From UHGV virus genome UHGV-0382128: DNA of 64,000 nt. One strand, written 5' to 3'. A program made the translations under genes and the position numbers. Of the stretch, positions 8,147-24,629 are shown piece after piece (the first letter of the stretch is position 1; every line of letters starts with the position of its first letter). The DNA is from a virus. Below the pieces are notes generated by a model that saw only the letters and a list, made by a program, of their open reading frames with translations, was not told where the DNA came from and did not search any database.

Positions 8147-8200
8147 AAAAAAACGTGCTACTCCTACCCTCTAAGAGGGTAGGAGGTTACTTTATTTTTT
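8147..8200. terminator. bidirectional rho-independent terminator
   Basis: Hairpin CTCCTACCCTC-TAA-GAGGGTAGGAG flanked by an A-run (5') and a T-run (3'), between convergent genes 7932..8141 (+) and 8192..9454 (-). Confidence 0.7.
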
Positions 8201-9523: not shown

Positions 9524-12500
9524 ATGGCTGTCGTCTTAGACCCACACTTCAAAAAACCGGGGAATAAAATAACCGGTGAAGCGGTCGCCGTCATTGGTAC
9601 GAAATACCGAATGTTGGTACCTGCCCACGCCCCTTTTTTCACCACATCCCTGGTGGTCAAGAGCGGCGGCAAAATACTGACCTTAGGCGACGATTACGTT
9701 ATTACACACTCGTACGAGACTGGTATGTTGCGCACAGCCTATCTCATTCACGGGATGATTTGGATTGTTAATGACAAATACAAATCGAACTTTACTGTAG
9801 ATTACCATGCTGTTGGTTGTGGTGAAGCAACCCAAGAGCAGATTACCGCAGAGCGCGAGCTTAATAAAGGTAAATACCCCTCCGCGTGTCAGTGGGACAC
9901 CGTTATCGGAGACGTTTACTTTCCACCGGTCGATATCCAGTTCGATTGGGAGAATTGGAAAGGTGAACTGGAGCTAATGCAGGCCATTGCTGGGGTAGGC
10001 GATTCGTTAGGGGAAGTCGTGAGTCGTCTTAACCCAATCGCACGCAATACACTGGATTTGGAATATCGTGCTAATAGCAAGGTTATCACTTCCGAGCAGT
10101 ATGCTGCGTACGATAATAAAGGCGGTTTCACCTACAACACAGCTCGCCACCGTTATAGCCTGAGTTATAAAGCGACAACCTTTAACAACTATTCCCTGTC
10201 GGTGAAACACAGAATTCCTGCTATTCTGCCAGACATGACAAAGTTGAATCCGAACGAACAGATCGATTGGATGCTCTGTTATGCCAACGGCGGTGCAAGT
10301 ATTCTACGGTTACAGCTAAAACAGCGCAAAATCTCACTGGTCTTAACTGTCGCTATTGGCAGTGGTTCAACAAACTACGATTATACTTTAATCAACGGTT
10401 TAACTGACGATGAGTTAAAAAACGATATCGATTTTAGTGTAACCCGACAACCCGGAAACGGCGTTTACGTAATCGTAGTAAAAACAAATAAACAGACCAT
10501 GGATTATACGTTCAACGTAGATACGCCGCCTGATGAGTTCTCGGCAGGGTATTCGAAAACGGATGTAGCCAAATGGTTGAAGTCTAAAACGAACATTAAC
10601 CTGAACTGGTATGCGGCTGAAAACGATTATGTTCAAATTCGTTCTTTACCCGGCGCGCCGGAGCCTGACGTCGATAACGATGTTTACCAGTTAATAGTTA
10701 AGTATCATCAGTTGGTTGAGCAGCTGTATCGTAATGCGCCTGCGCACGAACACATCACACGTAAGGACAACCCACACACAGATACGTGGGGTCCGATCCG
10801 TGCGTTAGAGTTGAACGGTATTGCGTCGGATGCAGCATTAGCTTACGGAAAAACGAAGCCGCAGTTAACGGATTATGTTAATGCTAAGTATCCAACACAA
10901 GCGACGCTGACAGCACAAAAGAAACTATTGCGCACGTCAGCTACGAAAACGGCTAACGGAACTATTGGAACGCTGCCCGGTTTTACTTCGTTCACGACGG
11001 AAGTTGACCCGGTGTCAATGTCGAAATACGTGAGTCCTCGTTTTAGCGAAAGCTACGTTAGTAATGGTCACAGGTATCACGGTGCGCTTCGTTACACAGG
11101 AACGAAGAGTGGATTCGCCACTTCTTTTAATGCGGTACCTGCTAACCTGCAAGATATTGACTTTATTGTTACCGGACGTAAAACAGCGTCTGGTAATGAA
11201 GCTGTCGGTACGGTTAGCCTACGTTTCTATCAGAAACCTGGTACTAACTCTGGAAAATTTATCCAGCTTACAGGTGAAATTTCTGCGGGTAAAGTCGGCG
11301 TTAAGTTGGAACTGAACGGTTTTTCGAATCCCACACCGGAAGTTCAGTATCTTTCCCAAGCTCCTAATCCAGCAATACCGGATGGGGATTTTACGCTGCG
11401 TTTTCAACTGAAACGCACAGGGAACGTGTTTGATGTCGTTATTACCATAAACGGCAAGACATACAGTGCACGTGTTAACTTCACTAACATGGACGCTGCA
11501 CTAGAAGCATTGGAGAATAGCCACCACTTTAAATCATTGATCAGTAATGTTGCTGACAACGTCACTATTAGCTCGGGGAATAAAGGTAACACGGTTACCA
11601 TTAAGAAAGCGCCCGACGTCGTTGACGGGACCCGTTTAGGTGCCCAGTTTGTCGTTGACCCGAAATCCATTAAGTTTATTGGACAAGGTTCAACCGAGGT
11701 TAATGTGGGGAATAACCCGGTAACGTTTCAAGCAGGTATTAACCAGCTTATATTGTATCCTGATGATCGTGGATTACAGTGGCGTGGTAAGAAACTCTTA
11801 GACCCCACTACCGTGGCTCCGTATCTGCCAGGCAATACCGCGGGCGGTACGGGATTATTCTACGGTACATCTACAACCACGGTAGAGCTTACCGGTAGCG
11901 GGATAAAAGCATCGCCGTTCGTAGCGACTTTTATTCTCCCTACCGCGACAGATACAACAGCCCTGGCAGCTTGGCAGTTGACTGATGAGTTTGGTACCGC
12001 TGAAAACCTTGCAGCAACGCCAGCACTGATTGAAAAACTCGATGCGGAGTTCACCGGTAAATTAGTTGCGGTTAAATCGTACATTAACGATATGCAACTT
12101 ACCAGCTCGGTCACTATCGACAAAATTACCTTTGGTTTAGGTAACGTTGCGAATACACCCGATGTCAATTTACCGATTTCTACAGCACAACGTGCGGAGT
12201 TAGATAAATACTCGCCTAAAGTTCACCAACACCCGTTTACCGCTTTTGGTACTGGGAACGCAACCACAGCGAAACGTGGTCTGATTAAATTTGGTCTGGA
12301 TGTGGATGATGCGACTTTAGCACTCGATGGGAGTGTGGTAATGGCGCAGACCTCCCAGATTGAAAAATTGGAAAATGCTGTCGGTGGCGTTGACTCGGGT
12401 GCTCGCGTTGACATTATTCGTTTCGGCAAGTCTGGTGACGACTTAATTAACGTTACGGTTAAAGACAAAATTCTGGCTATGCTCCCCGCTTCAACGTACT

Positions 12501-13846
12501 TTGTTGGTGGTGAGACGTATGACGTACCGTTAATGTCGGTTAACGTCACTGAACGTTTCCCGAATCCGAAAACGTTGATCTACGCAGGAATTTTTGTTGA
12601 TATTGTTGACAACAAAGCGAAGTATGTTATCCACGACAGCTACAATCAGGCTGAAACGGATACCATGACGCGCGTGGGAAGACTCGTTGTCAATGAGCTT
12701 TCCGAAGTGGACGTAGTGGAATTGCGTAACGTGACACGATTAGGCGAATTCCACGAGCTGAAAGACCACATCGCTAATGACAACGCACACATTCAACGTT
12801 CTGCTTCGCGTGCAGTATTGGGGTTAAGTGATTTAACAGTAGGTGCACCTTGCTGGGCTTCTGGACTCCAGGCAGTAGTGCGTGGTGAAGCAGATTGGCG
12901 TTATGTTGTTCGTGGACAGTATAAAGCCTTAGACGGGGTGAAATACGACCAGATCGCATCAAAGTGGATTTTCGATGCGAAAGGGGTAAGTGACAACGTT
13001 CACGGGTTTATTCACAACTTATTCCCGACTTTCAAAAACGCAGGAATGCGGGTAAGTTGGGAAACAGAAAGCAACGCAAAAACCGGAACAGTGTTAGAAA
13101 CTGTTTTAGGTTGTTGGAAGAACAACGACGGCGAGTTTATGCGGTTGTCATTACTTATCACTCGCGGTTATCGTTTAACTGACAGTAACGGTGAATATTG
13201 TTACGCAGGGTTCGGTTTGAACTTCGGTAGCGGGAAATCGGTAGTGGTAGGTTTCACACCAACGAAGCGTGTTACGCCTGCACCGTGGAGTTCATTACGA
13301 CCTGACGTAACGTTTACCCACACCCGTGGTGCAAACAACGCAATAACGTTTAATGCATCGCTGACTTTAGCTGGCACTGTGTATACTATCGTGGTGTTTT
13401 TATCCGCGACAGATAAATACGTAAGCTGTACGGCGGCAGGGGGAACTACGCAGAAAATCCCATTAGCCGACCGTTTAACCGGGTTCAATATCGAACCTAT
13501 CGTTAATGATCCGTATACCCCTATTTACTACGGTTTAGGGGGACTTTATGAGGATGAGGTTCGTGCCAACATCCGCTCTACAGCAGACAGCGCAACTGCG
13601 AACAAAGTCTACGGTACGTTGTTGGACTATGTTAGCAACTATTCCTCATTAAATCGAGTACGCGTCATGGAATTGTCCGGTGTCAGCTCAGACCCCGAAA
13701 CGCTTAATGCGTTAGTGGCAACTGAATTTAATAACAACCTGGCAGATTACGCTGCGTTACCGATACCTCCTTATCTTAACAAGGAGCGCGTAATGTCGTT
13801 TATCGACACCGACAATAAAGTGCAGGCGGTAATCATTCGCGATTAA
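9524..13846 (+). CDS. large virion fibre-like protein (1440 aa)
   Basis: First of four consecutive large proteins sharing an N-terminal P-F-[FY] ... G-x-DY-x-[LI] motif (here PAHAPFFTTSLVV...GDDYVI). Confidence 0.6.
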   Translation: MAVVLDPHFKKPGNKITGEAVAVIGTKYRMLVPAHAPFFTTSLVVKSGGKILTLGDDYVITHSYETGMLRTAYLIHGMIWIVNDKYKSNFTVDYHAVGCGEATQEQITAERELNKGKYPSACQWDTVIGDVYFPPVDIQFDWENWKGELELMQAIAGVGDSLGEVVSRLNPIARNTLDLEYRANSKVITSEQYAAYDNKGGFTYNTARHRYSLSYKATTFNNYSLSVKHRIPAILPDMTKLNPNEQIDWMLCYANGGASILRLQLKQRKISLVLTVAIGSGSTNYDYTLINGLTDDELKNDIDFSVTRQPGNGVYVIVVKTNKQTMDYTFNVDTPPDEFSAGYSKTDVAKWLKSKTNINLNWYAAENDYVQIRSLPGAPEPDVDNDVYQLIVKYHQLVEQLYRNAPAHEHITRKDNPHTDTWGPIRALELNGIASDAALAYGKTKPQLTDYVNAKYPTQATLTAQKKLLRTSATKTANGTIGTLPGFTSFTTEVDPVSMSKYVSPRFSESYVSNGHRYHGALRYTGTKSGFATSFNAVPANLQDIDFIVTGRKTASGNEAVGTVSLRFYQKPGTNSGKFIQLTGEISAGKVGVKLELNGFSNPTPEVQYLSQAPNPAIPDGDFTLRFQLKRTGNVFDVVITINGKTYSARVNFTNMDAALEALENSHHFKSLISNVADNVTISSGNKGNTVTIKKAPDVVDGTRLGAQFVVDPKSIKFIGQGSTEVNVGNNPVTFQAGINQLILYPDDRGLQWRGKKLLDPTTVAPYLPGNTAGGTGLFYGTSTTTVELTGSGIKASPFVATFILPTATDTTALAAWQLTDEFGTAENLAATPALIEKLDAEFTGKLVAVKSYINDMQLTSSVTIDKITFGLGNVANTPDVNLPISTAQRAELDKYSPKVHQHPFTAFGTGNATTAKRGLIKFGLDVDDATLALDGSVVMAQTSQIEKLENAVGGVDSGARVDIIRFGKSGDDLINVTVKDKILAMLPASTYFVGGETYDVPLMSVNVTERFPNPKTLIYAGIFVDIVDNKAKYVIHDSYNQAETDTMTRVGRLVVNELSEVDVVELRNVTRLGEFHELKDHIANDNAHIQRSASRAVLGLSDLTVGAPCWASGLQAVVRGEADWRYVVRGQYKALDGVKYDQIASKWIFDAKGVSDNVHGFIHNLFPTFKNAGMRVSWETESNAKTGTVLETVLGCWKNNDGEFMRLSLLITRGYRLTDSNGEYCYAGFGLNFGSGKSVVVGFTPTKRVTPAPWSSLRPDVTFTHTRGANNAITFNASLTLAGTVYTIVVFLSATDKYVSCTAAGGTTQKIPLADRLTGFNIEPIVNDPYTPIYYGLGGLYEDEVRANIRSTADSATANKVYGTLLDYVSNYSSLNRVRVMELSGVSSDPETLNALVATEFNNNLADYAALPIPPYLNKERVMSFIDTDNKVQAVIIRD

Positions 13847-13856
13847 GGAGAATTTT

Positions 13857-16800
13857 TTGATGAAAGCGTATCCTTACGATCCTCGGGGGACGAAAACCGA
13901 GAATCACTTCTTAGAGGAGCGTATCATCGGGTCAGAAAACAACAACGATCGGGTGGTGATTTTAGACCATCGCCCGTTCTTTGAAGATTTAGTCGTCAGA
14001 CAACCAGGTTCAACCACCCCACTGAGTCGTGGGGTGGACTACGAACTGCAATATCAGCTGACGGAACTGGATGACTCGGTAGCAGCCAACGTGTATTGTG
14101 GGGTACACCTTATCAACCCTTCCATCAAAGGCATCGTAACCTTTGAAGGACAAATGCTCGGCGGTACGTTCTACGACCCGTTTGTTGATATTCTCGATGA
14201 GCTGGTGAAATATTTGAATAACCCAGTCAGCGCTGACTGGCTGTTATTAGACGGTAGACCGTCGTTATATCCAGCGACGCCTGCGGCAACGTCTTGGGCG
14301 GATTTGCTAAACAAAAAATATTTAGCGTCGGCAGTCCACGATGTTGAATTGAAAACCGATGACGCTAACCAGTTAATTAAAGATAAATTAGCCGAAGTTA
14401 AAGCGTTAGTCGCCGCGCTGGGTAAAGAAATCGAGGCATTTAACTACCCGGCACACATCGCGGAAACCAACCCGCACCAAACTACTTCTGCACAGATTAG
14501 CGCACATCCTGTTAACTTGAAAACACCCGACACCTTTATGGCGTACGGGTTAAAGTTGAAAGCACTGACGGATGAACTGAAAGCGTTTCGTTTACCACAG
14601 TCAGTTATCGACACGTATATCTCTCACTGGATTTCTTCGGAAGTACGGGGTGTGTTTAACTGCACGGTGTCAGGAAACCGTGCACAGTTCCGCTCAAAAA
14701 ACGGTGAGTCAGAAATCATTTTTGCGAATGATGGCTTTACGTTAAAATCCAACGGTTCTGTAGTGTTAGCGGTAGGGCATCTGGAAGGAACGGGTGCAGG
14801 ACGTTACATTAACTGGCGTGCTGGTAAAAACACGTTACGCATCGAGTCAACGGGCGATGCTTTAGGGATGAACAAACTTACCCTAAACGGTAACCCGTTA
14901 CTGACCACCACAGCATTGATGGAATACCAACAGGACCCGGATGCTGGCGGGAGCGGTGGCGGTGACCCTGACGACTCAAAGGTGTACATCGAAGGCCGTA
15001 ATGGGATTAGCTTCACCGGTAAAGGCTCTCGGACCGATCCTATCGTGGGTACTATCGAACCGACGAAAGCGACAACCACCGAAAAAGGTGTTGTTAAGCT
15101 TAAAACTGGTAAAGGTACAGAAATCGTTGGGGTTGCAGCAACTCCGGCTTCGTTAGCGCCATATGCGACCGACCTATCGGGGTATGTGGCTAAAACGACC
15201 ATGATTAACGGTAAGCCGATGAATGACGGCTCCAGGACAATCACGAAAGCTGACCTGGGGTTAGGGCAAGCGGATAATACCGCAGATCTTGACAAACCGT
15301 TGTCAACCAAGTTAACTGAGGCGGTTAGCGGTCTAGCAGATGTGGGCCATCATCACGATTGGTCGGAGTTAGGTATTTATAAAGCCTCTCAATCTGTTTA
15401 CGGTATCGGTCGTTATGCAACTAACCAGAACGGTTTGGTTGAAAACCGTGCAGTGGTACCGAACATCCTAAAAGAGCTTTCGGCACGTTTAAGTGTGGTC
15501 GCTGCGGCAATTGCAAATGCGAAAGAAGGAACAGTCACGGATTTCGCTGCTGTAAAAGGCGCAGACTGGCGATTTAATAGCCAGGGTACGGCAATCTCCG
15601 TTCAGGATTTGAAATATTTCTATTTGCTGGACGGCACGAAAGGTGACAGCACCGTTACCGGTGCGATTGACCTGCAAACCACTCCGATGTTTAACTGGTT
15701 CTCACCGAACAACCAACTTGAGCTGACTTGGCCTACGGGTAAGGTGAGTAAAGGTACCGGGATTAGTTGGGATGGAATTGTTGATCCCCCAACAATGGGG
15801 TTTCAGTCAGTTCCGGTAGGTAAAAGCGCCACCCAGATGGGCGTTCAGTCCGTTGTATCGGTACTGGCTAAAACGCGCGTCAAAGCTCGTCAGAAAAGGC
15901 TGTTTGTTTATGCCGCTGGCGGTGGGACAATAACCGTTTATGTAAATGGTGTTGTAGCCGCTACTGGTGCGTCGCCATTGTTAATGAACTATGGAACGTC
16001 TCCAGATGTTGAAAACTACACAATTGCTGTTAAAGCAGAGTGTAGTGACACGGCTAAATCTGCAGCGGTACAGTTCGAAGTTTACGATGGTGACTACCCC
16101 GTTTATTTCAGTGGTCCTGAAACGCGTGTAGATCTTCTCCAGGAGTTTGTCACAACGCATGTAGGTATTCGTCATTATTTGTACGTTAACATGCTCACAG
16201 GCTCTCTGTATTCGCGTGCTGAACCAGTTCAAGGATTTGAGGTCGATCCAGAACGCGGATATATCGGTTATGTTGATATCGTTCCTGGTCAGTCTTACGC
16301 GAATAAAACCGTGGGATTTGAAACCACGTTTGATTTCGGGAAAAGTGCGGAAGTTAGCGAGCATAATAGTATTCGTAAGGCACACGGTCTCAACGCTGCG
16401 GACTGGTCACTGACGGATAACCCACGGTTGCCGTTATTAAACCGTGCTATTGCCGAACCAAGAGCGTGTATCTTTAGGAAACCGTTAGCAACCGCTACAG
16501 GGGATGTTTTCCATCTTGTCAGTCGTGGCCTTTATACCTACGCACACAACCAAAACGTGAAGTCGAGTCTTCAATACGTTGTGATACCTGAAGGTGCTAC
16601 GCCGTATTGTTGGTTTACACCATTTAACCCGAAAGAAAACAACGCACCGACATTCGAAGGCTCGTTTGCGTTCGATGTTGACGATGTTGGTGGAACGCAA
16701 GCCCTTGCTGCTGCGCCGGATTTGGTTCTATGCACGTCAACGCAAGGTAGCAGCGTTAAACGTCGCTATCTACGCATTGACCTAACTACCAAAGCCTGTA

Positions 16801-18041
16801 GGCTGGGGATTGGTTCCCGTTCAGATTCTGCCGTTACAGATATTCCGTTAGTGATGGAGGAGTCTGGGGAAACGGCGGTGGTCGCAACGTTTAAGGATGT
16901 GTTGTTCAACGGCGAGGAAACCAACCCCGCGGCACTCGACTTGATAGGTTGGGGTGCCAGCCGAGATAAAATTTCTGCAAACCATGCACCTCGTGGCATG
17001 ATTCGCTATCGTTACAACGTAAACACTCGGGTATTACGTTTAGCACTGTCGTTCTCACAGTTCGGAACGACAACAGTTAAACATCGACAGCTGGAGATTC
17101 AATTCCCGTTCGATTTAGTGGATTATTTCACTGGCGACGGTGTGGGATTGTCGTTTAAAGAACTGTCTGCGAAATGCCGTGTAACGATTAGTCATGCACT
17201 GATTGATCCGGCTACGAGTAACGTCGACATTGATAAGTACCATTACTTACGTTCGTTGTTCGAATCGTATCTGGATTCGTCCGTTGGGTATTTGGCTGAT
17301 ACCAAAGACGTTGATTTTAGTCAGTCTGTGATTGACCCTGCGACTTACGAGGTTAGTCAAAAATACCGCGTTACAGAAAGCATCGCGCTGCCAACCGGCC
17401 AGGGAAGTGTTGCTGTTTCCCATGACGGCCAGTTGCCTGCGCAGTTCTTTGACCGTAAGCTGTCTCGTGGTGCCTTGATGGCCAAGAAAGGTGAACTCAA
17501 CACTTCCTGGAATAATGAGTGGAGCACGACTAAAGCTGCTGCGAGTCGTTATCGCCATAAACTCATTCTACGCTTTGCACAAGGTGCTGATAAACAGCAG
17601 TATCGCGTTGCAAAAGTGGCCGGGACGGTGAAGTCTAACTGGCCGGGTAAAGTGATTATCGGTGATGCCGGGAAGGACCCGTATGTATCGGCTATTGATA
17701 GCGTATCTTTTGCGCTTTCGACCGCCTCTGATACAGGTAAAGCGATTACTCTTACGCCAAAGGACTTACGTGTAGGTCAGGACATTTATATTGTCTTAGA
17801 ACCACCCGGCAATAATCCAGAAGGTTATGAACTTAACTTCACTTGTTCGTTAGATGTCACTGACGAGAAAAGTGTCCGTCAAGATCAACTCAATGCACAG
17901 AGTTTCGAACTCCGTAGCGGCGAAAGTCAGTTCTTAATGGAGAAACGCAACCCGTACCACATCACGAGTAAAGCGTGGAAGTGGATTCTGGCTGTACTGA
18001 AACGAGAACTTAACGGGAAGCAGTTAGGGGATCGTACTTAG
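13857..18041 (+). CDS. tail fibre protein (1394 aa)
   Basis: Shared N-terminal motif (RPFFEDLVV...GVDYEL); contains a tail-fibre-repeat-like segment TEKGVVKLKTGKGTEIVGVAATPASLAPY. Confidence 0.65.
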   Translation: MMKAYPYDPRGTKTENHFLEERIIGSENNNDRVVILDHRPFFEDLVVRQPGSTTPLSRGVDYELQYQLTELDDSVAANVYCGVHLINPSIKGIVTFEGQMLGGTFYDPFVDILDELVKYLNNPVSADWLLLDGRPSLYPATPAATSWADLLNKKYLASAVHDVELKTDDANQLIKDKLAEVKALVAALGKEIEAFNYPAHIAETNPHQTTSAQISAHPVNLKTPDTFMAYGLKLKALTDELKAFRLPQSVIDTYISHWISSEVRGVFNCTVSGNRAQFRSKNGESEIIFANDGFTLKSNGSVVLAVGHLEGTGAGRYINWRAGKNTLRIESTGDALGMNKLTLNGNPLLTTTALMEYQQDPDAGGSGGGDPDDSKVYIEGRNGISFTGKGSRTDPIVGTIEPTKATTTEKGVVKLKTGKGTEIVGVAATPASLAPYATDLSGYVAKTTMINGKPMNDGSRTITKADLGLGQADNTADLDKPLSTKLTEAVSGLADVGHHHDWSELGIYKASQSVYGIGRYATNQNGLVENRAVVPNILKELSARLSVVAAAIANAKEGTVTDFAAVKGADWRFNSQGTAISVQDLKYFYLLDGTKGDSTVTGAIDLQTTPMFNWFSPNNQLELTWPTGKVSKGTGISWDGIVDPPTMGFQSVPVGKSATQMGVQSVVSVLAKTRVKARQKRLFVYAAGGGTITVYVNGVVAATGASPLLMNYGTSPDVENYTIAVKAECSDTAKSAAVQFEVYDGDYPVYFSGPETRVDLLQEFVTTHVGIRHYLYVNMLTGSLYSRAEPVQGFEVDPERGYIGYVDIVPGQSYANKTVGFETTFDFGKSAEVSEHNSIRKAHGLNAADWSLTDNPRLPLLNRAIAEPRACIFRKPLATATGDVFHLVSRGLYTYAHNQNVKSSLQYVVIPEGATPYCWFTPFNPKENNAPTFEGSFAFDVDDVGGTQALAAAPDLVLCTSTQGSSVKRRYLRIDLTTKACRLGIGSRSDSAVTDIPLVMEESGETAVVATFKDVLFNGEETNPAALDLIGWGASRDKISANHAPRGMIRYRYNVNTRVLRLALSFSQFGTTTVKHRQLEIQFPFDLVDYFTGDGVGLSFKELSAKCRVTISHALIDPATSNVDIDKYHYLRSLFESYLDSSVGYLADTKDVDFSQSVIDPATYEVSQKYRVTESIALPTGQGSVAVSHDGQLPAQFFDRKLSRGALMAKKGELNTSWNNEWSTTKAAASRYRHKLILRFAQGADKQQYRVAKVAGTVKSNWPGKVIIGDAGKDPYVSAIDSVSFALSTASDTGKAITLTPKDLRVGQDIYIVLEPPGNNPEGYELNFTCSLDVTDEKSVRQDQLNAQSFELRSGESQFLMEKRNPYHITSKAWKWILAVLKRELNGKQLGDRT

Positions 18042-18079
18042 GACAGACTGCCTGCGGGCAGTTGTGTGTCCGTAGGTAA

Positions 18080-18118
18080 CCCCTCCCTGTAATGGGGAGG
18101 GGTATCCATTTTATTTAA
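18080..18118 (+). terminator. terminator-like hairpin between fibre genes
   Basis: CCCCTCCC-TGTAAT-GGGGAGGGG followed by TATCCATTTTATTT. Confidence 0.45.
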
Positions 18119-18135
18119 AAGTAGGAGTCTTTACG

Positions 18136-21100
18136 ATGCCGAGAGAAGACGCGGCGCAGTTTAACGGTACGCTAAGCACAACGACGTACCCTAACCGATT
18201 TAACGTGGTCATTCCGCCTGAAGGACCTTTTTATCGTATCGGATTAAAACTCACAGTAGCCGACGATACCGCGCCTAACGGACGTCGTACTCTGATTGAG
18301 GGGTTGGACTACTATTTAGGCTATTACTTTAAAGAACTCGCAGAAGCTGAACAAGATCAGATTTATGGCGGGTTTATGTTGCTTACTGCAACAGAAATCG
18401 AATATGAGATTTTAGGGGTAGCACGTCAATACCGTGTACCGCAATCTGAAATCGGTAAGTTCTTAGTTCGTACTGACCTGAAAGACCCACGTAACGTGGA
18501 CTGGTCGGAGTTAATGGCGTACGCGCCGGTTATTCAACCAATCGACCCCCCTGCTAACTTAGAAGAAGCTATTCTGAGGGACGAGGTCGTTAAAGCGTTG
18601 AACGATATCCGCAAGAAAATCATTCAGCGTTCAACAGAGTTAGATGCGGCCTTCACCGAAGTCACTAACCTGATTTACGAGAACGGTAAAAAGATTTTCG
18701 ATGAAGAACTATACCAACACCACCTTAATCCTAACGCTCACCAGTATACGACCAATGACGTTGGGGCCCTTCCGGTTTTAGGACGTGCTGTTGACGCTAC
18801 AAAAGCGTTTGGGTTGACAATTGACCAACTGGCTACGCTGATGGGTTCGGCGGGCATTGAGCAATCAGACGTTGAACAGCTAATGGGTGAAGCCCTCGGT
18901 ACCGTTTACGGTCGTTGGGGCACCACGAACGGTAACGAACTAACGTTTAAAACACCGGGTGGACACATCATCAGCATCCGTGGTGATAAGTGGTTAATTA
19001 CCTCCCCGCAACCGTTAGTGATTAAAGCAGACCAAGACAACAACGAATCCGGTTTGGCGGTTGAGTTTAGTGCGGGACTGAATACGCTTTGGGTACACTC
19101 TGGGTCAGAACAGGATGTATTAGCACCGGTCTATAACTCTGTGTATCTCGTTACACCAGAAATGGTGAACATGTACCTGACGTCTGTAACGTTACTTGAA
19201 GCGAATGCCTATTTCAAACCGTCAGACACCGTAAAACCGTACGGTACAGCGAAGCAGTCTAACCCACTAACGTTGAACGCGAATATTCCCACAGCAACCG
19301 AGTCGGTTTATGGGGTGTTTTCGATTACGAATATCGCAACCTCTGTAGCGCTAGGCACTGCTATTTCCCAAAAGGCTGTGACCGAGTTAAAAAACCGGTT
19401 GGACTTGTACGTTGACGACGACTACACGGTTAACGGTAAAGGGTTTGTTAAGACAGGCGACAACATGGTGTTAACCTTAACGAAGGCCGATTTCGGTATC
19501 GATAAGATGAATAACACCGCACCCATCGCTAAACCGGTAACAAAAGCATTAGCGAACGTGCTGAAAAATAAAAGTTTGAAGGTTCACACGCACACTACCG
19601 CTGATTTGGATAATGTCCCGATTGGTAGCGCAACAGTGGACGGTATCTTACAGCTGTGGGATGCGATTGATACCACGAATGATAAAGCCGTCACATCACG
19701 CCAAGGGTGGCTGTTCGCAAAAGAGATTAAGAAGGTCTCTGATAAACTGAATACCCTCTTGCCCGCATGGACAACGGCCGGGAGCAAATATACCAACAAT
19801 TCGATATTGCCGATCTTGTCGATGGGTAATTACGAAGGTTATGGTAAAAACATGGATGCGCTCCAGATGGTTATAGGGGTACAACAAGGTAAGCTTTATG
19901 CTTTAATTAGCTCTAAATCCGCCCTTCCGGGAACTGAGGGTATTTATTACGCTGTTGCTGGGTTAAAAAACGACAAAAGTCTCGGTGAAATTTACAAAAC
20001 AACTTTCCGTTATAAGCCGAAAGGGTTAGAGACGAATTATCCGGGGGTGGAACTAAAAGAAATTACCGTTACTGGTACCGAAGCATTTATAGCGAAGGGC
20101 AGCGACGATAATTATTATTTAGTTAAACTGAACGGTTCAATGGATTACACCAAACATACCGATGTCAGGTTGGTAACTTTCTCAGAATTTGTTTCAGAAA
20201 CAACATGGGAATTTGTGCCGAATATGTTCATGGATCGTGTGGTCATAGCCGATAACGGCGTCTATGTTTTGCGTACGATGCTAATGGCCGATCTGAAAAA
20301 CAATACTCTGGTGGACTACATTAAGGATACCCCACAACCCATGTTCCGTGTTGGCTTATTGCGGCTTAATAAAACCGATCGGTTTGAACAGGTTGATTTA
20401 AGGTCTACACGAAAAATCGGTAAGTGTGCCGATTTGGTTGAACCTGGCGCGTTCGATGTAGATAATCCGAATACGAAGCGTCTTGCCTACTTCACTGCGG
20501 AAGGCAAAGCGTTGTGGACAGTGAACTTACAATTAACTAGAGGGTCGTCAAGATGGATAACGCCCGTTGTTAAGGACGGTCACTTGTTAACCGTCGGCGT
20601 GTCTGGTGTTTGTCTTGGTTTTTCTTCAACGAAAGGTACCACATTCGGGCCATGGAATGGTGCTTATCGTCTTGACCTATTAACCGGGGAGGTTGGGTTA
20701 GAGACAACTAACGTCTTCCCAATTAAAATCGATACTACAGGTTGTTACTTAAAAGACGGAACAAAAATAGAGCTGAAATGGAAATGGGCTACTCGAAGTT
20801 CTGGCTATATGGCCGACAATAGAATCTGTGTCGGTGATATGGTTTATTCTTGCTGCTGTTCGACAGAAAAACAACTTGCACCATCTCTCCATTACCAGAA
20901 ACTCCCAGAAGGAGTTAGTTATCTGGACTATGTTAAGTTGAGTGTGGGGTATGAGGGGCAATCTACGTTTGAAAATCGGATAAACCCTGTGGTGGGTTCG
21001 GTGTGGAAACCGTCTATGACCTTCCCATTGTTCTTCCCAGGAACAAACAAAGTATGGCTTAAACATCAAAAATCGGCTTATTTCATTGAAGCCGAATATG

Positions 21101-23322
21101 ATAAAAATACGACCTATGGTTATCCTGGATACGGTGGTTTTGGACCAACATCCCGCCGTGTTGAAAAAACAGCGAACGAATACGGCATATTGACAAATAT
21201 ACCGCTGGTTGTTACGCCAGAAATACCGAACGGCCTACTAGAAGGGGCTTATTTTATCGGTGCCGAAAGTAAACCGTGTACAGTTGTTTACGGTACCACT
21301 ACGGTGGGTAGTGATCGGTTGTCTATCGATGCGGCAGAATGGGCGAAGCTGACTAATATTGTTCAGTCCAGCCAGTTCTCCGGGGCATCTAACGGCAACG
21401 CCTATGAGCGGATTAGCGTAGCTAAGACCAAAAAGAACAACTACAGTTTGTCCTTTTGGGTGCTTGGTCAAACGATGTCTGGTGGTCCGCTTTGTATCGC
21501 GATAGTGAGTCTTATCTATAAAGACACTGACGGGGTAAATAAGTTTGCTTTTTACTTCTTTCAGGTAAAACCGACTATAACCAACGGGGTCATAAGGTTC
21601 GTTAGTTCGGAAGCGAGATTGATGACGTTTAGGGAAAAAGTGGCCAGTAACGCCATTAATCTCTCACCCACAGCTTTTAATGGTGAACTTAAACAACGCT
21701 CCGGTCAAGTTTTCCTTTATTCGCAAGACGGACAAAAGTTCAGATTCTCAATACATAACCTGGTTGGTGGGAATCTTGTAGGATCAGAGATTTCTTTTGC
21801 TTTTGGGATAAACTTGACTAAAAAAGGCGAATGGTTTACCGGCGAAATTCATCGGGCGTGGGGCTATACGTATACGCTGAATAATACATCTGAAGTCTAT
21901 ATACCCGATCTCTCGGGCATCGCGCTATTGACTTGTAACTCGGAAGATTTAAACGAGTTGTATCTCGGTGGCGAACAGTATAGAATCTCTGATTTGTTTA
22001 ACAAAAAATATACTGTTATCGATAAGATTATTATTGGCGGCGTACAAACACAGAGCGGTTGGAATTTCTATCTGACGGAGGAAACCGAGTTAAGTTTTGG
22101 AAATAAAAGATATACCGTTCCAAGATGGTCCGTTGATTTAAGCGATGAATTCCCGACTAATCATGCTAACCAGACGTTCTACGTTTATGCTGAAGTGGTC
22201 GGTTCTACTGCCCAATACCGCATCGGTTTAGAGCAGTTAGCTGATACCTCGTCGAGACTGTTTGTTGGGACTGTAACCACTGATTCGAACCGTATTACGG
22301 ATATCAGTATCGATAAAGTAAAACGGTTAGGTCGCGTAAAAGAGCTGGAAAATCATGCCTCGATTGTTGATCAACACGATGTGGCGCAGGCATTCGACAG
22401 GAAAACTGGCCCACTATTAACGCTGGTTAATAAACCCGTTAAAGTCGTTACAGCATCTGCGAGCAAGGGTGCTGGGTATGTCGATGGTCAGAAATGGAAT
22501 ACGTTGTCCGGGATTACAACACGTTCCAGGTTGCCGGTACAGGAAACCTATTCAGGTTATAAAAGTATCAGCAGGGTGGCGTATGAGAACTGCGCTGACC
22601 AGTTCTGGCAGAAAGCGGTTGCTGCGAACGTTGCAGCGGCTACTGCTTCTGAGAACAAACAAGCAGCAACCGCGAACATGAAGTGGTTGGGCGCGTATAC
22701 GAAACCGACTGTCGGTGCGAATGTGTGTCTGGTATTGAGTCTACGTGTTAAAGTGCCTGGTAATCCCGGCACCGCTAATCGTAAACTAAAAATCAGATTC
22801 GCGGCTCCGACAGGTATAACTGATGTTAGTTACGGGCTAAATCAGTCTGGCGGTTCGATGGCTGAACAGACAGTAACGCTAACTGCTAACAGTTATCTGG
22901 AAAAAGAACATGCCGGATTTAAGCCAGCCGAAGAAGTCCGTCTTCATGCTACGTTTTACATTCCAACAAATGAATACGATAGTTACCGTACGAAGTTCGG
23001 TGCTGTTCAGCTGATTGACGTTGAGACGAACACTGTCATTAAACAGACAGATATCGACACACCGTTTATCGTGTACACCGCCACAGAGCAAGCGGCACAA
23101 TCTGGTTTGGTCTATAAAGCGGTTAAGAGTCAGTTTCGTCAACTCCCGGCTCAACCTGTCGTCATTGTAACTGATGGACAGACAGGGACTACACCACCGG
23201 TGAAAACCGCGTATTCTGACGGCACGTTAACGGTCTATGTGGCAACCACGTACGATGCGGTTAACCCAGCACAAACTCGCGATATCGATAAACTCCAGTT
23301 CAATCTTATGTTTACATCTTAA
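18136..23322 (+). CDS. tail fibre protein (1728 aa)
   Basis: Shared N-terminal motif (PPEGPFYRIGL...GLDYYL); fibre-repeat-like segment TESVYGVFSITNIATSVALGTAISQKAV. Confidence 0.65.
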   Translation: MPREDAAQFNGTLSTTTYPNRFNVVIPPEGPFYRIGLKLTVADDTAPNGRRTLIEGLDYYLGYYFKELAEAEQDQIYGGFMLLTATEIEYEILGVARQYRVPQSEIGKFLVRTDLKDPRNVDWSELMAYAPVIQPIDPPANLEEAILRDEVVKALNDIRKKIIQRSTELDAAFTEVTNLIYENGKKIFDEELYQHHLNPNAHQYTTNDVGALPVLGRAVDATKAFGLTIDQLATLMGSAGIEQSDVEQLMGEALGTVYGRWGTTNGNELTFKTPGGHIISIRGDKWLITSPQPLVIKADQDNNESGLAVEFSAGLNTLWVHSGSEQDVLAPVYNSVYLVTPEMVNMYLTSVTLLEANAYFKPSDTVKPYGTAKQSNPLTLNANIPTATESVYGVFSITNIATSVALGTAISQKAVTELKNRLDLYVDDDYTVNGKGFVKTGDNMVLTLTKADFGIDKMNNTAPIAKPVTKALANVLKNKSLKVHTHTTADLDNVPIGSATVDGILQLWDAIDTTNDKAVTSRQGWLFAKEIKKVSDKLNTLLPAWTTAGSKYTNNSILPILSMGNYEGYGKNMDALQMVIGVQQGKLYALISSKSALPGTEGIYYAVAGLKNDKSLGEIYKTTFRYKPKGLETNYPGVELKEITVTGTEAFIAKGSDDNYYLVKLNGSMDYTKHTDVRLVTFSEFVSETTWEFVPNMFMDRVVIADNGVYVLRTMLMADLKNNTLVDYIKDTPQPMFRVGLLRLNKTDRFEQVDLRSTRKIGKCADLVEPGAFDVDNPNTKRLAYFTAEGKALWTVNLQLTRGSSRWITPVVKDGHLLTVGVSGVCLGFSSTKGTTFGPWNGAYRLDLLTGEVGLETTNVFPIKIDTTGCYLKDGTKIELKWKWATRSSGYMADNRICVGDMVYSCCCSTEKQLAPSLHYQKLPEGVSYLDYVKLSVGYEGQSTFENRINPVVGSVWKPSMTFPLFFPGTNKVWLKHQKSAYFIEAEYDKNTTYGYPGYGGFGPTSRRVEKTANEYGILTNIPLVVTPEIPNGLLEGAYFIGAESKPCTVVYGTTTVGSDRLSIDAAEWAKLTNIVQSSQFSGASNGNAYERISVAKTKKNNYSLSFWVLGQTMSGGPLCIAIVSLIYKDTDGVNKFAFYFFQVKPTITNGVIRFVSSEARLMTFREKVASNAINLSPTAFNGELKQRSGQVFLYSQDGQKFRFSIHNLVGGNLVGSEISFAFGINLTKKGEWFTGEIHRAWGYTYTLNNTSEVYIPDLSGIALLTCNSEDLNELYLGGEQYRISDLFNKKYTVIDKIIIGGVQTQSGWNFYLTEETELSFGNKRYTVPRWSVDLSDEFPTNHANQTFYVYAEVVGSTAQYRIGLEQLADTSSRLFVGTVTTDSNRITDISIDKVKRLGRVKELENHASIVDQHDVAQAFDRKTGPLLTLVNKPVKVVTASASKGAGYVDGQKWNTLSGITTRSRLPVQETYSGYKSISRVAYENCADQFWQKAVAANVAAATASENKQAATANMKWLGAYTKPTVGANVCLVLSLRVKVPGNPGTANRKLKIRFAAPTGITDVSYGLNQSGGSMAEQTVTLTANSYLEKEHAGFKPAEEVRLHATFYIPTNEYDSYRTKFGAVQLIDVETNTVIKQTDIDTPFIVYTATEQAAQSGLVYKAVKSQFRQLPAQPVVIVTDGQTGTTPPVKTAYSDGTLTVYVATTYDAVNPAQTRDIDKLQFNLMFTS

Positions 23323-23362
23323 CGCCACGAGACAAGGACGTCTCGGATTAAGGAGAGTGGCC

Positions 23363-24562
23363 ATGGCCTCCATTGTATACCAATACCCTTTAGATTTAAC
23401 GGGAACCCTAACCTCTAACGCCGTGGAGCGTCAGATTACGTTAGGTACAGGCAAAGTTAACCGTGCGTTTGCTTTCCCTGATGGTCCGTTTTATGCCGAT
23501 ACGTTCCGCTTGCGGGTTGCCAATCGACCTGGAGCGACATATGAGCGTGGAACGGACTATGAACTGATTTTTGCACACCCGGCTTATGAGAAATTGACGA
23601 AGAACCGGGAAGTGGTAATGGCGGTTGTTGTAACGAACACCGCGATTCCGACCGATATCACGGTATCGGCGCAAGTAGTTGGTGGTCCTCAGTCTGCAAA
23701 TGTGACCGCGATTGAGCAAGCGATTGCCGAGTTGAAACTCGATAATCGAACTGTTGGCTTTAAAGACTTGCGAAATGTGCCGGACACGTTTCCTTCAGCA
23801 CCAACGTATAAAGACGTCGGTGATATTTACGGCTTCGAATATATCATTACAGTGCTCGCTGGCATTAAAGATGCGATAACTGCGGGTGATGCTGTACAGC
23901 TTGAGAACATCAAAGCGATTCTCGATAGCCTGAAAAACGATTTCCTGGACGCGCTGAACGCGCACATTAACTCTACTGGTAATGTCCACCATCTGGATAT
24001 TCATCAGGTTAACGGGTTAACGGAAACGGAGATCCGCGCTTTAATTCGCAGTGTTCAGACAGCCATTGATGCAACGATTGCCGATATCAATGCATTGAAG
24101 AAAGCGGACGAAGCGTTAGGAAAACGTATTGATGCTGTTGTCAAATCTCTGGAAGCGTGGAACGACCAACTTAACGTCGTTGCACAAAACTATCAGAAAA
24201 TGGCACTGGCGCTGGCGAACCTAAACTCGTTAGTGTTACAGTTACAGAAAAATATCAACGATCTGAACACCAAACTCAACCAAGCGATTCAGCGCATTGC
24301 TGCGTTAGAACAGCGGGGTAATGAGACCGATCAGAAAATTGATAATCTGCAACAAAACTTGGATGCGCTTAAACAACAGGTTGCGAATAACACGAACGCA
24401 ATCAGTCAGGCGAATCAGAACCTACAAAACCATATTGCGGCAGATAACCCACACACAGGTTATCTCCACAAGAAATACGGTGGTGTGGTTCAGGCTTCAG
24501 TACACGTTAACGCTAACCTGACGTCCCGTGATGACGTTCAGGCAGAAGCAGGTACGAAATAA
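23363..24562 (+). CDS. coiled-coil fibre protein (about 399 aa; start adjusted from track ORF 23237)
   Basis: ATG at 23363 preceded by AAGGAGAG RBS; N-terminal FPDGPFYADTFRL...GTDYELIF motif shared with the three upstream proteins; long heptad-like C-terminal region. Confidence 0.6.
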   Translation: MASIVYQYPLDLTGTLTSNAVERQITLGTGKVNRAFAFPDGPFYADTFRLRVANRPGATYERGTDYELIFAHPAYEKLTKNREVVMAVVVTNTAIPTDITVSAQVVGGPQSANVTAIEQAIAELKLDNRTVGFKDLRNVPDTFPSAPTYKDVGDIYGFEYIITVLAGIKDAITAGDAVQLENIKAILDSLKNDFLDALNAHINSTGNVHHLDIHQVNGLTETEIRALIRSVQTAIDATIADINALKKADEALGKRIDAVVKSLEAWNDQLNVVAQNYQKMALALANLNSLVLQLQKNINDLNTKLNQAIQRIAALEQRGNETDQKIDNLQQNLDALKQQVANNTNAISQANQNLQNHIAADNPHTGYLHKKYGGVVQASVHVNANLTSRDDVQAEAGTK

Positions 24563-24629
24563 TTTAATTACAGGAGGAACTATGTTTATGGACGTAGTCC
24601 TCCATTCTTTTTTATTTTAAGGATACGTG

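What the first reader, a model, noticed from the sequence alone, without database searches (positions are those of the whole stretch)
9524..24562. Four consecutive fibre-like proteins (1440, 1394, 1728 and about 399 aa) share an N-terminal motif
All four begin with a related segment (PFF/PFY ... G-x-DY-x-L/I within the first about 80 aa) and then diverge completely; two carry tail-fibre-repeat-like segments (T..G.V.L ... AATP) and the last is a long coiled coil. The arrangement suggests a shared N-terminal attachment module carrying different distal domains, i.e. a multi-fibre adsorption apparatus.
Basis: partly seen in the sequence, partly recalled or inferred. Interest (0 to 1): 0.45.

Follow-up and report, generated by a model that had tools for sequence, protein, structure and literature searches.

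The report
Jumbo-phage baseplate fibre gene set
These four neighbouring genes are the baseplate-fibre proteins of a giant phage related to Salmonella phage SPN3US and Pseudomonas phage phiKZ; they share an N-terminal docking domain, a family already described and recently imaged in phiKZ, so this is a real but largely ordinary finding.

Summary
Four consecutive + strand genes (P1 9524-13846, P2 13860-18041, P3 18136-23322, P4 23363-24562) each begin with the same ~165-residue domain. A profile built without the window sequences hits only these four of 257 ORFs (E 1e-30 to 1e-53).

It is a known family. The window comes from an SPN3US/Asesino-like jumbo phage. The genes are orthologues of SPN3US gp170/169/168/167 and members of the phiKZ gp131-135 paralogue family. 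As in phiKZ, they lie next to a divergently transcribed gp130 homologue (8192-9454, - strand). In the phiKZ cryo-EM atlas, gp130 is the platform under which six gp131-like N-domains and a six-helix bundle anchor each fibre.

- P1-P3 do not "diverge completely". They share a colinear ~560-residue proximal part, including fibre repeats and one HxH motif each, plus a ~120-residue module.
- All three large proteins carry the fibre repeats, not two.
- P4 is a conserved coiled-coil partner, not a carrier of a variable head.

My own additions, by inference: the N-domains split into a gp131 side (P1-P3) and a gp135 type (P4). Gene counts per genome are mostly 1+1, 1+3 or 3+1, which fits a base made of two trimers. 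P3 carries a swapped ~700-residue cassette.

The parts
8192..9454 (-). gp130-like fibre-docking (platform) protein, 420 aa, transcribed divergently from the fibre genes
   Evidence: BLASTP to phiKZ gp130 over the full length, E 2e-12. 80% identical to Asesino gp191. PHROG 3337 E 4e-144. The SPN3US orthologue gp171 is an essential tail protein with phiKZ ORF130 as its homologue (PMC5105663). In phiKZ the fibre-attachment sites lie beneath gp130 (PMC13250141).
9524..13846 (+). P1, 1440 aa, gp131-side fibre protein (orthologue of SPN3US gp170, Asesino gp190, pVa-21 gp125)
   Evidence: PHROG 7557. tblastn 53% to SPN3US gp170. N-domain clade with pVa-21 gp125 has 93-95% bootstrap.
9524..10021 (+). 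P1 N-terminal gp131-like docking domain (aa 1-166)
   Evidence: HMM without window sequences E 1.2e-48, aa 5-165. BLASTP of the first 230 aa to phiKZ gp131, E 3e-10.
10022..10675 (+). P1 insertion 1 (aa 167-384), between the N-domain and the helix/H..NPH segment; absent from P2/P3
   Evidence: hhalign block map of P1 against P2. No significant similarity to insertion 2 (BLASTP E 0.87).
11006..11635 (+). P1 insertion 2 (aa 495-704); absent from P2/P3 and largely absent from the Asesino and SPN3US orthologues
   Evidence: hhalign block map. Gapped 100-aa blocks in the alignments with Asesino gp190 and SPN3US gp170.
11636..12433 (+). P1 part of the shared proximal shaft (aa 705-970), with the fibre-repeat region and HxH at aa 901-903 (12224-12232)
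   Evidence: Alignment A5 of P1/P2/P3, motif scan, PHROG tail-fibre hits at aa 842-912.
12431..12790 (+). P1 copy of a ~120-aa module shared with P3 (and weakly with P2), ending in an H..N.H motif
   Evidence: hhalign P1 970-1089 ~ P3 1294-1414, probability 98.3%, E 1.3e-14; against P2 730-842, E 2e-4. The same module occurs in many other jumbo phages.
13860..18041 (+). P2, 1393 aa (1394 from TTG 13857), gp131-side fibre protein (orthologue of SPN3US gp169, Asesino gp189)
   Evidence: PHROG 8078 over the full length. 51% identical to Asesino gp189. The start is supported by the RBS and by gene calls on related contigs.
13860..15563 (+). P2 proximal part shared with P1 and P3 (aa 1-568): N-domain 1-170, helix, H..NPH at 199-207, fibre repeat at 405-429, HxH at 497-499
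   Evidence: hhalign, A5 alignment, motif scan.
18079..18103 (+). Strong hairpin (11-bp stem, 7 GC pairs) followed by a T-rich tail, between P2 and P3; terminator-like
   Evidence: Sequence and terminator scan. Function not tested.
18136..23322 (+). P3, 1728 aa, gp131-side fibre protein (orthologue of SPN3US gp168, Asesino gp188, pVa-21 gp123)
   Evidence: PHROG 7449 over the full length, tblastn, clade bootstrap 98-99%. SPN3US gp168 is a tail protein (PMC5105663).
18205..19806 (+). P3 proximal part shared with P2/P1 (aa 24-557), with HxH at aa 484-486
   Evidence: hhalign P2 32-570 ~ P3 24-557, E 3e-40; motif scan.
19933..22035 (+). P3 hypervariable central cassette (about aa 600-1300), candidate receptor-binding region
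   Evidence: Only 21-45% identical to the close relative L006, whose P1, P2 and P4 are 91-92% identical. The P3 flanks are 89-99% (N-terminal) and 74-89% (C-terminal) identical. This is also the least conserved stretch against Asesino and SPN3US.
23363..24562 (+). P4, 399 aa, gp135-type member (orthologue of SPN3US gp167, Asesino gp187, pVa-21 gp121, Goslar gp25; closest phiKZ paralogue gp135)
   Evidence: tblastn 79% to SPN3US gp167 and a hit on phiKZ gp135. BLASTP of the first 230 aa to gp135, E 1e-16. gp135-type clade has 100% bootstrap.
23363..23887 (+). P4 N-terminal docking domain (aa 1-175): beta-sandwich at about aa 10-108, then a helix from aa 152
   Evidence: AF2 model me9ab47d5b8b9, pLDDT about 90-95 for aa 10-110. 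BFVD Foldseek gives 54 hits at E<=1e-3; the listed hits that carry a name are jumbo-phage structural, YomR or tail-fibre proteins or metagenomic Myoviridae structural proteins.
24023..24439 (+). P4 long helix / coiled coil (aa 221-359), flanked by H..N.H motifs at aa 201-209 and 357-364
   Evidence: AF2 model, Pfam and NCBIfam coiled-coil families only, motif scan.

Best explanation
The four genes encode the gp131-family baseplate fibre proteins of an SPN3US-like, phiKZ-related jumbo phage.

Each protein starts with a ~165-residue beta-sandwich domain, followed by an alpha-helix and an H..N.H motif. By homology with phiKZ, this module docks the proteins under the gp130-like platform protein at the baseplate periphery. 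That platform protein is encoded divergently just upstream. The module also bundles six chains per attachment site (six N-domains plus a six-helix bundle).

P1, P2 and P3 (the gp131 side) continue with a common ~560-residue proximal shaft. It contains P2/T4-like fibre repeats and one HxH motif each. They then carry different, fast-evolving distal parts of 800-1150 residues. These are the likely host-recognition elements; in P3, a ~700-residue central cassette is swapped between close relatives.

P4 (the gp135 type) is short and uniformly conserved. It consists of the docking module plus a ~140-residue coiled coil, and it is most likely the structural partner that completes the hexameric base.

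Shown here: homology, synteny, domain map and conservation gradient. Taken from the literature on orthologues: virion and tail location, docking under gp130, and the hexameric base. Inferred: receptor binding by the distal parts, and the 3 x gp131-side + 3 x P4 composition.
For: Family and synteny:
- Nearest DNA and protein relatives are Erwinia phage Asesino gp190-187 and SPN3US gp170-167, in the same order.
- The upstream minus-strand ORF is a gp130 homologue.
- The layout 'gp130 homologue | N-domain genes' is found in all 12 genomes examined.

N-domain homology:
- HMM hits are limited to the four ORFs.
- The same HMM hits phiKZ gp131, 133, 134 and 135 at E 8e-45 to 6e-23, but not gp132, gp145 or gp146.
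- 3216 representative proteins carry the domain; in all 150 best matches listed it is at or near the N-terminus.

Structure and location from the literature:
- SPN3US gp168-170 form 'paralog family C', described as baseplate/fibre candidates that are absent from a tailless mutant (PMC5694885).
- SPN3US gp171 is essential, and gp168 is a tail protein (PMC5105663).
- SPN3US gp167 is detected in virions.
- phiKZ gp131-135 tolerate no transposon insertions (PMC12676376).

Anatomy and evolution:
- Proximal shaft homology.
- AF2 models.
- Conservation gradient of 76-85% N-terminal against 16-45% distal, with P4 at 77% and the gp130-like protein at 80% throughout.
- The swapped P3 cassette.
Against: - Nothing in this window has been tested experimentally. 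Location and function are transferred from orthologues that are 40-80% identical (SPN3US) or about 22-27% identical (phiKZ).
- The phiKZ fibre base was modelled by rigid-body fitting of AlphaFold3 N-termini into 4.4-4.6 A maps, and its authors call it a 'candidate' hetero-hexamer.
- The fibre N-terminal chains are not in the PDB sequence copy, so I could not compare my model with coordinates.
- The distal parts have no recognisable receptor-binding or enzymatic domain. Pfam and NCBIfam give nothing. PDB profile searches give nothing for P1 and P3, and only a marginal lectin hit for P2 (E 0.006).
- They lack the seven-bladed propeller of gp131 (no 4GBF hit).
- PHROG labels these families 'head and packaging', which conflicts with the tail location. 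The SPN3US tailless-mutant proteome contradicts that label.
Confidence: 0.8

Rival explanations
1. Four independent homo-oligomeric fibres or spikes. Each protein would form its own homotrimer and use the shared N-domain as an interchangeable adaptor at its own baseplate site. This resembles the tailspike sets of CBA120/G7C-type phages or the T7 gp17 anchor, with no co-assembly of paralogues.
Against: The phiKZ maps show six N-domains and a six-helix bundle per site, fitted with different paralogues. phiKZ has two kinds of site (unit1 and unit2), which does not accommodate four kinds of homo-oligomer symmetrically. P4 has no distal head. The N-domains fall into two robust types, and at least one gene of each is present in every genome examined. 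That argues for obligatory partnership rather than interchangeable adaptors.
Confidence: 0.2
2. Purely architectural baseplate proteins. The four proteins would be struts of the very large peripheral baseplate with no role in host recognition. Adsorption would be done by other proteins in the window: the T4-like 1479-aa fibre, the SASA-esterase protein and the DUF7941 proteins.
For: The window encodes a classical fibre with Phage_fiber_2, Gp34_trimer and Peptidase_S74 domains (48771-53210, - strand), a carbohydrate-esterase protein (44687-46807, - strand) and four DUF7941 proteins. No known receptor-binding domain was found in P1-P3.
Against: The steep N-to-C conservation gradient and the cassette swap in P3 between 91-92% identical relatives are signatures of host-range proteins, not of struts. 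The phiKZ authors place the gp131 C-terminal domain at the distal, cell-facing end of the fibres. P2 gives a weak lectin-like hit.
Confidence: 0.08
3. Chance or compositional resemblance of the N-termini, with no common origin.
For: Some pairwise BLASTP values are not significant: P1-P4 E 2.8, P1-P2 N-terminus E 0.24, P3-P4 E 0.029.
Against: Independent profiles detect all four at E 1e-30 or better, and detect nothing else in the window. PHROG 2163 gives E 9e-16 to 1e-103. hhalign probabilities reach 98-100% for several pairs.
Confidence: 0.01

Closest known systems
phiKZ gp131 paralogue family (gp131, gp133, gp134, gp135) with the gp130 platform; the hetero-hexameric fibre complex of the phiKZ structural atlas (PMC13250141); crystal structure of the gp131 C-terminus, 4GBF
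   Same: Homologous N-terminal domain, helix and H..NPH motif. Same gene layout next to a divergent gp130 homologue. Four N-domain genes. P4 is the counterpart of gp135, and P1-P3 group on the gp131 side of the tree.
   Different: The proteins here are much larger (1440, 1393 and 1728 aa, against 771 and about 460 aa). There is no gp131-type seven-bladed propeller (no 4GBF hit) and no gp132-like small gene. The paralogue numbers are reversed: three on the gp131 side and one of gp135 type here, against one and three in phiKZ.
SPN3US 'paralog family C' (gp168, gp169, gp170) plus gp167 and gp171 (Thomas laboratory; PMC5694885, PMC5105663); the same set in Erwinia phages Asesino/phiEaH2 and Vibrio phage pVa-21
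   Same: One-to-one orthologues in the same order. Identities to SPN3US are P1 55%, P2 49%, P3 42% and P4 79%. Identities to Asesino are P1 50%, P2 53%, P3 45%, P4 77% and the gp130-like protein 80%. In SPN3US these are virion and tail proteins present at similar low abundance.
   Different: The window phage is not in the GenBank phage collection at the DNA level; the best hit covers 5% at 78% identity. P1 has an extra ~200-aa insertion. The distal parts are only 16-45% identical. The SPN3US papers list three family members; gp167 is not in the PSI-BLAST-defined family, whereas profiles here place its orthologue P4 firmly in it.
N-terminal anchor domains of other phage fibres and spikes (T7 gp17 N-terminus, 7BOZ/8E4G; CBA120 TSP4 N-terminus, 7RFV)
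Trimeric phage fibres with P2/T4-type fibre repeats and HxH metal sites (for example T4 gp12/gp37; from my own knowledge of these families)
   Same: P1-P3 share a 'T..G.V.L...AATP' repeat, a '(T/D)K..FGLG..NT.D..(K/L)P(L/I/V)(S/T)' stretch and a single aligned HxH. PHROG tail-fibre families hit these segments (E 1e-3 to 6e-6).
   Different: Pfam Phage_fiber_2 does not reach E 0.1 on P1-P3, although it does hit the separate 1479-aa fibre. Metal binding and the oligomeric state were not tested.

Membership tests
phiKZ gp131-like baseplate fibre family | N-terminal gp131-like domain homologous to those of phiKZ gp131/133/134/135 | tested here: met
   An HMM of 36 non-window members hits P1-P4 (E 1e-30 to 1e-53) and phiKZ gp131, 133, 134 and 135 (E 8e-45 to 6e-23). 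BLASTP gives P2-gp131 2e-11, P1-gp131 3e-10 and P4-gp135 1e-16.
phiKZ gp131-like baseplate fibre family | Alpha-helix after the N-domain that can contribute to the six-helix bundle, followed by the H..NPH motif | tested here: met
   AF2 predicts a helix at aa 152-202 in P4. An aligned helical segment and H..N.H motif are present in all four proteins and in the phiKZ paralogues. In P1 it is displaced by a 218-aa insertion. Formation of a bundle itself was not tested.
phiKZ gp131-like baseplate fibre family | Genes clustered next to a divergently transcribed gp130 homologue (the attachment platform) | tested here: met
   Window 8192-9454 (- strand) against phiKZ gp130, E 2e-12 over the full length. 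The same layout is seen in 12 genomes.
phiKZ gp131-like baseplate fibre family | Location at the baseplate periphery or fibres in the virion | not testable with these tools
   Known only for orthologues: phiKZ cryo-EM, and SPN3US mass spectrometry with a tailless mutant.
phiKZ gp131-like baseplate fibre family | Hetero-hexameric base (six N-domains from different paralogues) | not testable with these tools
   No multimer prediction is available. Indirect support only: there are two N-domain types, with gene counts of 1 or 3 per type in 10 of 12 genomes.
gp131 proper (C-terminal seven-bladed beta-propeller, PDB 4GBF) | C-terminal propeller domain homologous to gp131 residues 374-771 | tested here: not met
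   phmmer of P1, P2 and P3, and profile searches of their orthologue alignments against PDB sequences, do not find 4GBF. gp131 itself finds it at E 2e-280.
SPN3US paralog family C (gp168-170) | Orthology with SPN3US gp170, gp169 and gp168 in the same gene order | tested here: met
   tblastn and global alignments give 55%, 49% and 42% identity with colinear coverage. Clades have 100% bootstrap.
Classical P2/T4-type tail fibre (Pfam Phage_fiber_2 / Gp34_trimer / Peptidase_S74) | Significant match to these Pfam models | tested here: not met
   No Pfam family reaches E<=0.1 for P1-P3. Only PHROG tail-fibre families match weakly over the repeat region. The models do hit another window protein, 48771-53210.
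T7 gp17-type N-terminal fibre anchor | Significant structural match of the N-domain | tested here: inconclusive

The most novel reading that the evidence does not exclude
The fibre base of phiKZ-like phages is built from two trimers, one of gp131-side chains and one of gp135-type chains. Either trimer can be a homotrimer (one gene) or a heterotrimer (three genes).

In the 12 genomes compared:
- phiKZ and Noxifer have 1+3.
- The window phage, SPN3US, Asesino and pVa-21 have the mirror image, 3+1.
- Goslar, RSF1, Eowyn and FLC9 have 1+1.
- Ea35-70 and OBP have three genes: one on the gp131 side and two in an unresolved group.

On this reading each fibre of the window phage would be one composite object. 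P1, P2 and P3 would be held in register by their common ~560-residue shaft and a shared HxH site, and clamped by a P4 coiled-coil trimer. The fibre would then split into three different receptor-binding heads. A single fibre could therefore read three receptors, and each head (for example the P3 cassette) could be swapped independently.
Probability: 0.35. Interest if true: 0.55.

Novelty: new member of a known kind. Interest (0 to 1): 0.27.

Why it matters
Fibre proteins decide which bacteria a phage can infect, and SPN3US-like jumbo phages are being considered against Salmonella, Erwinia and related hosts.

This locus gives a clean domain map of the fibre set:
- a conserved docking module;
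- a common shaft;
- variable distal parts, with a sharply delimited swapped cassette in P3.

That map shows where host range could be re-engineered without disturbing assembly.

The reciprocal paralogue counts (3+1 here, 1+3 in phiKZ) offer a simple, testable rule for how the unusually complex fibres of chimallivirus-type phages are put together. However, the family itself, its location and its N-terminal anchoring role are already published.

Tried and rejected
- Pfam and NCBIfam scans of P1-P4 gave nothing except coiled-coil noise for P4.
- phmmer of each protein, and hmmsearch of the three orthologue alignments, against PDB sequences found nothing useful. There was no fibre N-terminal chain of phiKZ, and only a marginal lectin hit for P2.
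- The word-indexed homologue search with P2 residues 1-560 returned almost nothing (7 hits). The exhaustive profile search was needed instead.
- I suspected that the two ~210-aa insertions in P1 were duplicates of one domain. BLASTP gives E 0.87, so this is not supported.
- I tested whether small ORFs downstream of P4 are fibre-assembly chaperones like pVa-21 gp120/gp122 or Goslar gp27/gp28. There is no similarity.
- I tested whether phiKZ gp145/gp146, which a SPN3US paper lists as the homologue of gp168, carry the N-domain. They do not.
- SPN3US spectral counts were examined as a stoichiometry test. Spectral counts per kDa (SC/M) are 1.9 for gp167 against 1.0-1.4 for gp168-170. Both the heterotrimer and the homotrimer models predict the same ratio, so this is uninformative.
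- Sigma-70 promoter scanning was no better than shuffled sequence, and these phages use their own polymerases.
- The structure-prediction quota went on P4 and on the N-domain, so the distal domains of P1-P3 remain unmodelled.


Full report
**What is there**

The region holds four consecutive + strand genes.
- P1 is 9524-13846 (1440 aa).
- P2 is 13857-18041 (1394 aa from TTG). ATG 13860 lies 9 nt behind an AAGGAG and is the start used by gene callers on identical and near-identical contigs, giving 1393 aa.
- P3 is 18136-23322 (1728 aa).
- P4 is an ORF of 441 aa whose real start is ATG 23363 behind AAGGAG, giving 399 aa like its orthologues.
- A strong hairpin with a T-rich tail lies between P2 and P3 at 18079-18103.

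**Is the shared N-terminus real?**

Yes. Direct pairwise BLASTP is uneven: P2-P3 E 3e-19, P2-P4 4e-7, but P1-P2 0.24 and P1-P4 2.8. Profiles settle the matter.
- PHROG 2163, the P4 family, matches the N-termini of all four (E 9e-16, 2e-29, 7e-40, 1e-103).
- An HMM built from 36 family members that excludes the window sequences hits exactly these four of 257 window ORFs of at least 60 aa, each at its N-terminus (E 1e-30 to 1e-53). Nothing else scores at E<=10.
G-x-DY) coincides with the few columns that are at least 90% conserved in a 40-sequence alignment of diverse members.
- A profile of the four window N-termini finds 3216 proteins (2148 at E<=1e-10) among 1.84 billion cluster representatives. 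In all 150 best matches listed the domain lies at or near the N-terminus of proteins of 159 to 2488 aa.

The proteins do not diverge completely after ~80 residues. Profile-profile alignment of orthologue sets gives the following:
- P1 1-970 ~ P2 1-568 (E 2e-33);
- P2 32-570 ~ P3 24-557 (E 3e-40);
- P1 ~ P3 (E 4e-23);
- P2 2-214 ~ P4 6-217 (E 3e-14).

So the three large proteins share a colinear proximal part of about 560 residues. It comprises the N-domain, a helix, an H..N.H motif, a beta-rich stretch, the fibre-repeat region ('T..G.V.L...AATP' and 'TK..FGLG..NT.D..KP.S'), and one HxH at aligned positions (P1 901, P2 497, P3 484).

P1 has two extra insertions of about 210 residues each, at 167-384 and 495-704. 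The second is largely missing from the Asesino and SPN3US orthologues.

A further ~120-residue module is shared by P1 (970-1089) and P3 (1294-1414) at E 1e-14, and weakly by P2. It recurs in tail proteins of many other jumbo phages.

All three large proteins carry the fibre repeats, not two. P4 is indeed a docking module followed by a long helix at residues 221-359.

**What it is**

The window comes from a jumbo phage of the SPN3US/Asesino group. The fibre region has only patchy DNA matches: 78% identity over 5% of the query, to Erwinia phage Asesino. At the protein level the genes are one-to-one orthologues, in the same order, of Asesino gp190-187 and SPN3US gp170-167. Identical or 91-92% identical copies exist only in metagenome and SRA assemblies.

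The divergent upstream gene (8192-9454, - strand) is the homologue of phiKZ gp130 (E 2e-12 over the full length) and of SPN3US gp171. That is the phiKZ layout: gp130 on the minus strand, then gp131-gp135 on the plus strand. The N-domain HMM hits phiKZ gp131, 133, 134 and 135, but not gp132, 145 or 146.

**What the literature says**

- SPN3US gp168, gp169 and gp170 are 'paralog family C'. They are low-abundance virion proteins similar to phiKZ gp131, they are missing from a tailless mutant, and they are called baseplate/fibre candidates (PMC5694885).
- gp171 is essential and tail-associated, with ORF130 as its phiKZ homologue (PMC5105663).
- gp167 is detected in virions.
- In phiKZ, gp131-135 tolerate no transposon insertions (PMC12676376).
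- The 2026 cryo-EM atlas of phiKZ finds fibre-attachment sites beneath gp130. [quoted passage not shown] There are twelve fibres per virion (PMC13250141).
- The Goslar structure preprint could not resolve this region.

The phiKZ model, however, suggests co-assembly of the paralogues rather than four separate fibres.

**Structure**

AF2 on P4 with 34 homologues gives a beta-domain at residues 10-108, a helix at 153-202, a loop carrying the H..N.H motif, and a helix at 221-359. The N-domain alone, with a deeper alignment, is confident: pLDDT is about 90-95 for residues 10-110.

- Foldseek against BFVD finds 54 matches at E<=1e-3. The listed ones that carry a name are jumbo-phage 'virion structural', 'YomR' or 'tail fibre' proteins, or metagenomic Myoviridae structural proteins.
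- Against solved structures nothing is significant by Foldseek. The best hits, at E 0.06-0.2, include the T7 gp17 N-terminus and Kp9 fibre adaptors.

This is a resemblance, not membership. The phiKZ fibre N-terminal chains are not in the PDB sequence copy; only 4GBF, the gp131 C-terminal propeller, is there.

**Function of the distal parts**

No known domain is found in P1-P3. Pfam and NCBIfam give nothing. PDB profile searches are empty for P1 and P3 and give a marginal lectin hit for P2 profile positions 610-728 (E 0.006). They lack the gp131 propeller.

Evolution nevertheless points to host recognition.
- Against Asesino, the first 100 residues are 76-85% identical, while distal blocks fall to 16-45%.
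- P4 (77%) and the gp130-like protein (80%) are evenly conserved.
- In the close relative L006, the P2 and P4 orthologues (and the 91%-identical P1 representative P0059, assigned to the same lineage by its length and identity) are 91-92% identical. P3 shows 89-99% in its first 500 residues, then 21-45% over residues ~600-1300, then 74-89% to the end. That is a sharply bounded cassette exchange.

**An added inference**

A neighbour-joining tree of N-domains from 12 genomes gives a 'gp135-type' clade with 100% bootstrap. It contains P4, SPN3US gp167, Asesino gp187, pVa-21 gp121, Goslar gp25, one gene each of RSF1, Eowyn and FLC9, and three each of phiKZ and Noxifer.

P1, P2 and P3 each pair with one pVa-21 gene (bootstrap 93-95%, 68-72% and 98-99%). 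They sit on the other side of the tree, with phiKZ gp131.

Gene counts (gp131 side + gp135 type) are:
- 1+1 in four genomes;
- 1+3 in two (phiKZ, Noxifer);
- 3+1 in four (window, SPN3US, Asesino, pVa-21);
- 1+2 in two (Ea35-70, OBP, with the two extra genes in an unresolved group).

Only ±14-20 kb around one hit was scanned in each genome, so copies elsewhere would be missed.

This fits a base made of two trimers, each homo- or heterotrimeric. It predicts P1+P2+P3 plus 3 x P4 here. The underlying events are few, however: two triplications and one duplication. SPN3US spectral counts cannot separate a P1·P2·P3 heterotrimer from three kinds of homotrimer each paired with a P4 trimer; spectral counts per kDa are 1.9 for gp167 and 1.0-1.4 for gp168-170. 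I rate this reading at about 0.35.

**Verdict**

This is a real feature, correctly spotted, and a new member of a known and recently visualised family. The N-terminal anchoring role is published. The useful additions here are the corrected domain map, the placement of the gp167-type protein in the family, the swapped P3 cassette, and the reciprocal paralogue counts.

Noticed in passing
window 24627-25022 (+), 26015-26413 (+), 25042-25956 (+), 27990-28928 (+), 28912-30234 (+): Directly downstream of P4 lie two paralogous ~131-aa proteins whose C-terminal ~85 residues are almost entirely Cys/Gly/Ser/Thr (for example ...CGGSCSWTCSNGCTHGCTSCSGTCTSVC...). They are interleaved with three radical-SAM genes (PF04055 + Fer4_12). 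This looks like a RiPP-like precursor plus maturase cassette in a jumbo phage. SPN3US, Asesino and Ralstonia phage RSF1 also have radical-SAM genes after their fibre genes. A literature search for 'radical SAM' + 'jumbo phage' + 'cysteine-rich' found nothing.
   Followed up: partly
window 48771-53210 (-): A fifth large fibre protein (1479 aa) of classical type, with Phage_fiber_2, the Gp34 trimerisation domain and a C-terminal Peptidase_S74 chaperone, and many PHROG tail-fibre hits. It lacks the gp131-like N-domain, so it must attach to the virion in another way.
   Followed up: partly
window 44687-46807 (-): A 706-aa protein with a SASA carbohydrate (sialate O-acetyl-type) esterase domain and DUF6645. 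It may be a receptor-modifying enzyme of the virion.
   Followed up: no
window 31491-32021, 32090-32620, 35297-35761, 35775-36623 (all -): Four DUF7941 proteins. The Goslar structure preprint proposes that this family forms head-to-tail filaments (a 'fibre cloud') on the peripheral baseplate. This is a second adsorption-related paralogue family in the same window.
   Followed up: partly
window 18079-18103 (+): An 11-bp GC-rich hairpin with a T-rich tail lies between P2 and P3. It suggests that P1-P2 and P3-P4 may be separate transcription units. Similar hairpins lie at 8161-8185 and 7844-7863.
   Followed up: no
window 19933-22035 (P3 aa ~600-1300), compared with L006 4777-9960: This segment is only 21-45% identical between two phages that are otherwise 91-92% identical in the neighbouring fibre genes, and it has sharply conserved flanks. 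That indicates a recombinational cassette swap inside the fibre gene, not at its C-terminus.
   Followed up: yes
window 11006-11635 (P1 aa 495-704): A ~200-aa insertion in the shaft of P1. It is present in the 91%-identical P1 representative P0059 but largely absent from SPN3US gp170 and Asesino gp190, so it is a lineage-specific domain acquisition. Its fold is unknown.
   Followed up: partly
window about 15690-16050 (P2 profile positions 610-728): A marginal profile match (E 0.006) to lectin structures 6T0Q, 6T1D and 6KBJ. It may indicate a carbohydrate-binding jelly-roll in P2. Pfam does not confirm it.
   Followed up: no
window 6760-7725 (+): A 321-aa protein of PHROG 3216 ('baseplate assembly protein'), with a weak match to P2 gpV (TIGR01644, E 0.002). 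It is probably a baseplate hub or spike component near the fibre locus.
   Followed up: no
P1 aa 410-422 and 1082-1090; P2 199-207; P3 195-204; P4 201-209 and 357-364: A short 'H-x(2-8)-N-x-H' motif recurs at the end of helical segments in all four proteins, at both ends of the P4 coiled coil, and in the phiKZ paralogues ('HI.D..NPH'). It may be a metal site or a structural punctuation. No explanation was tested.
   Followed up: no
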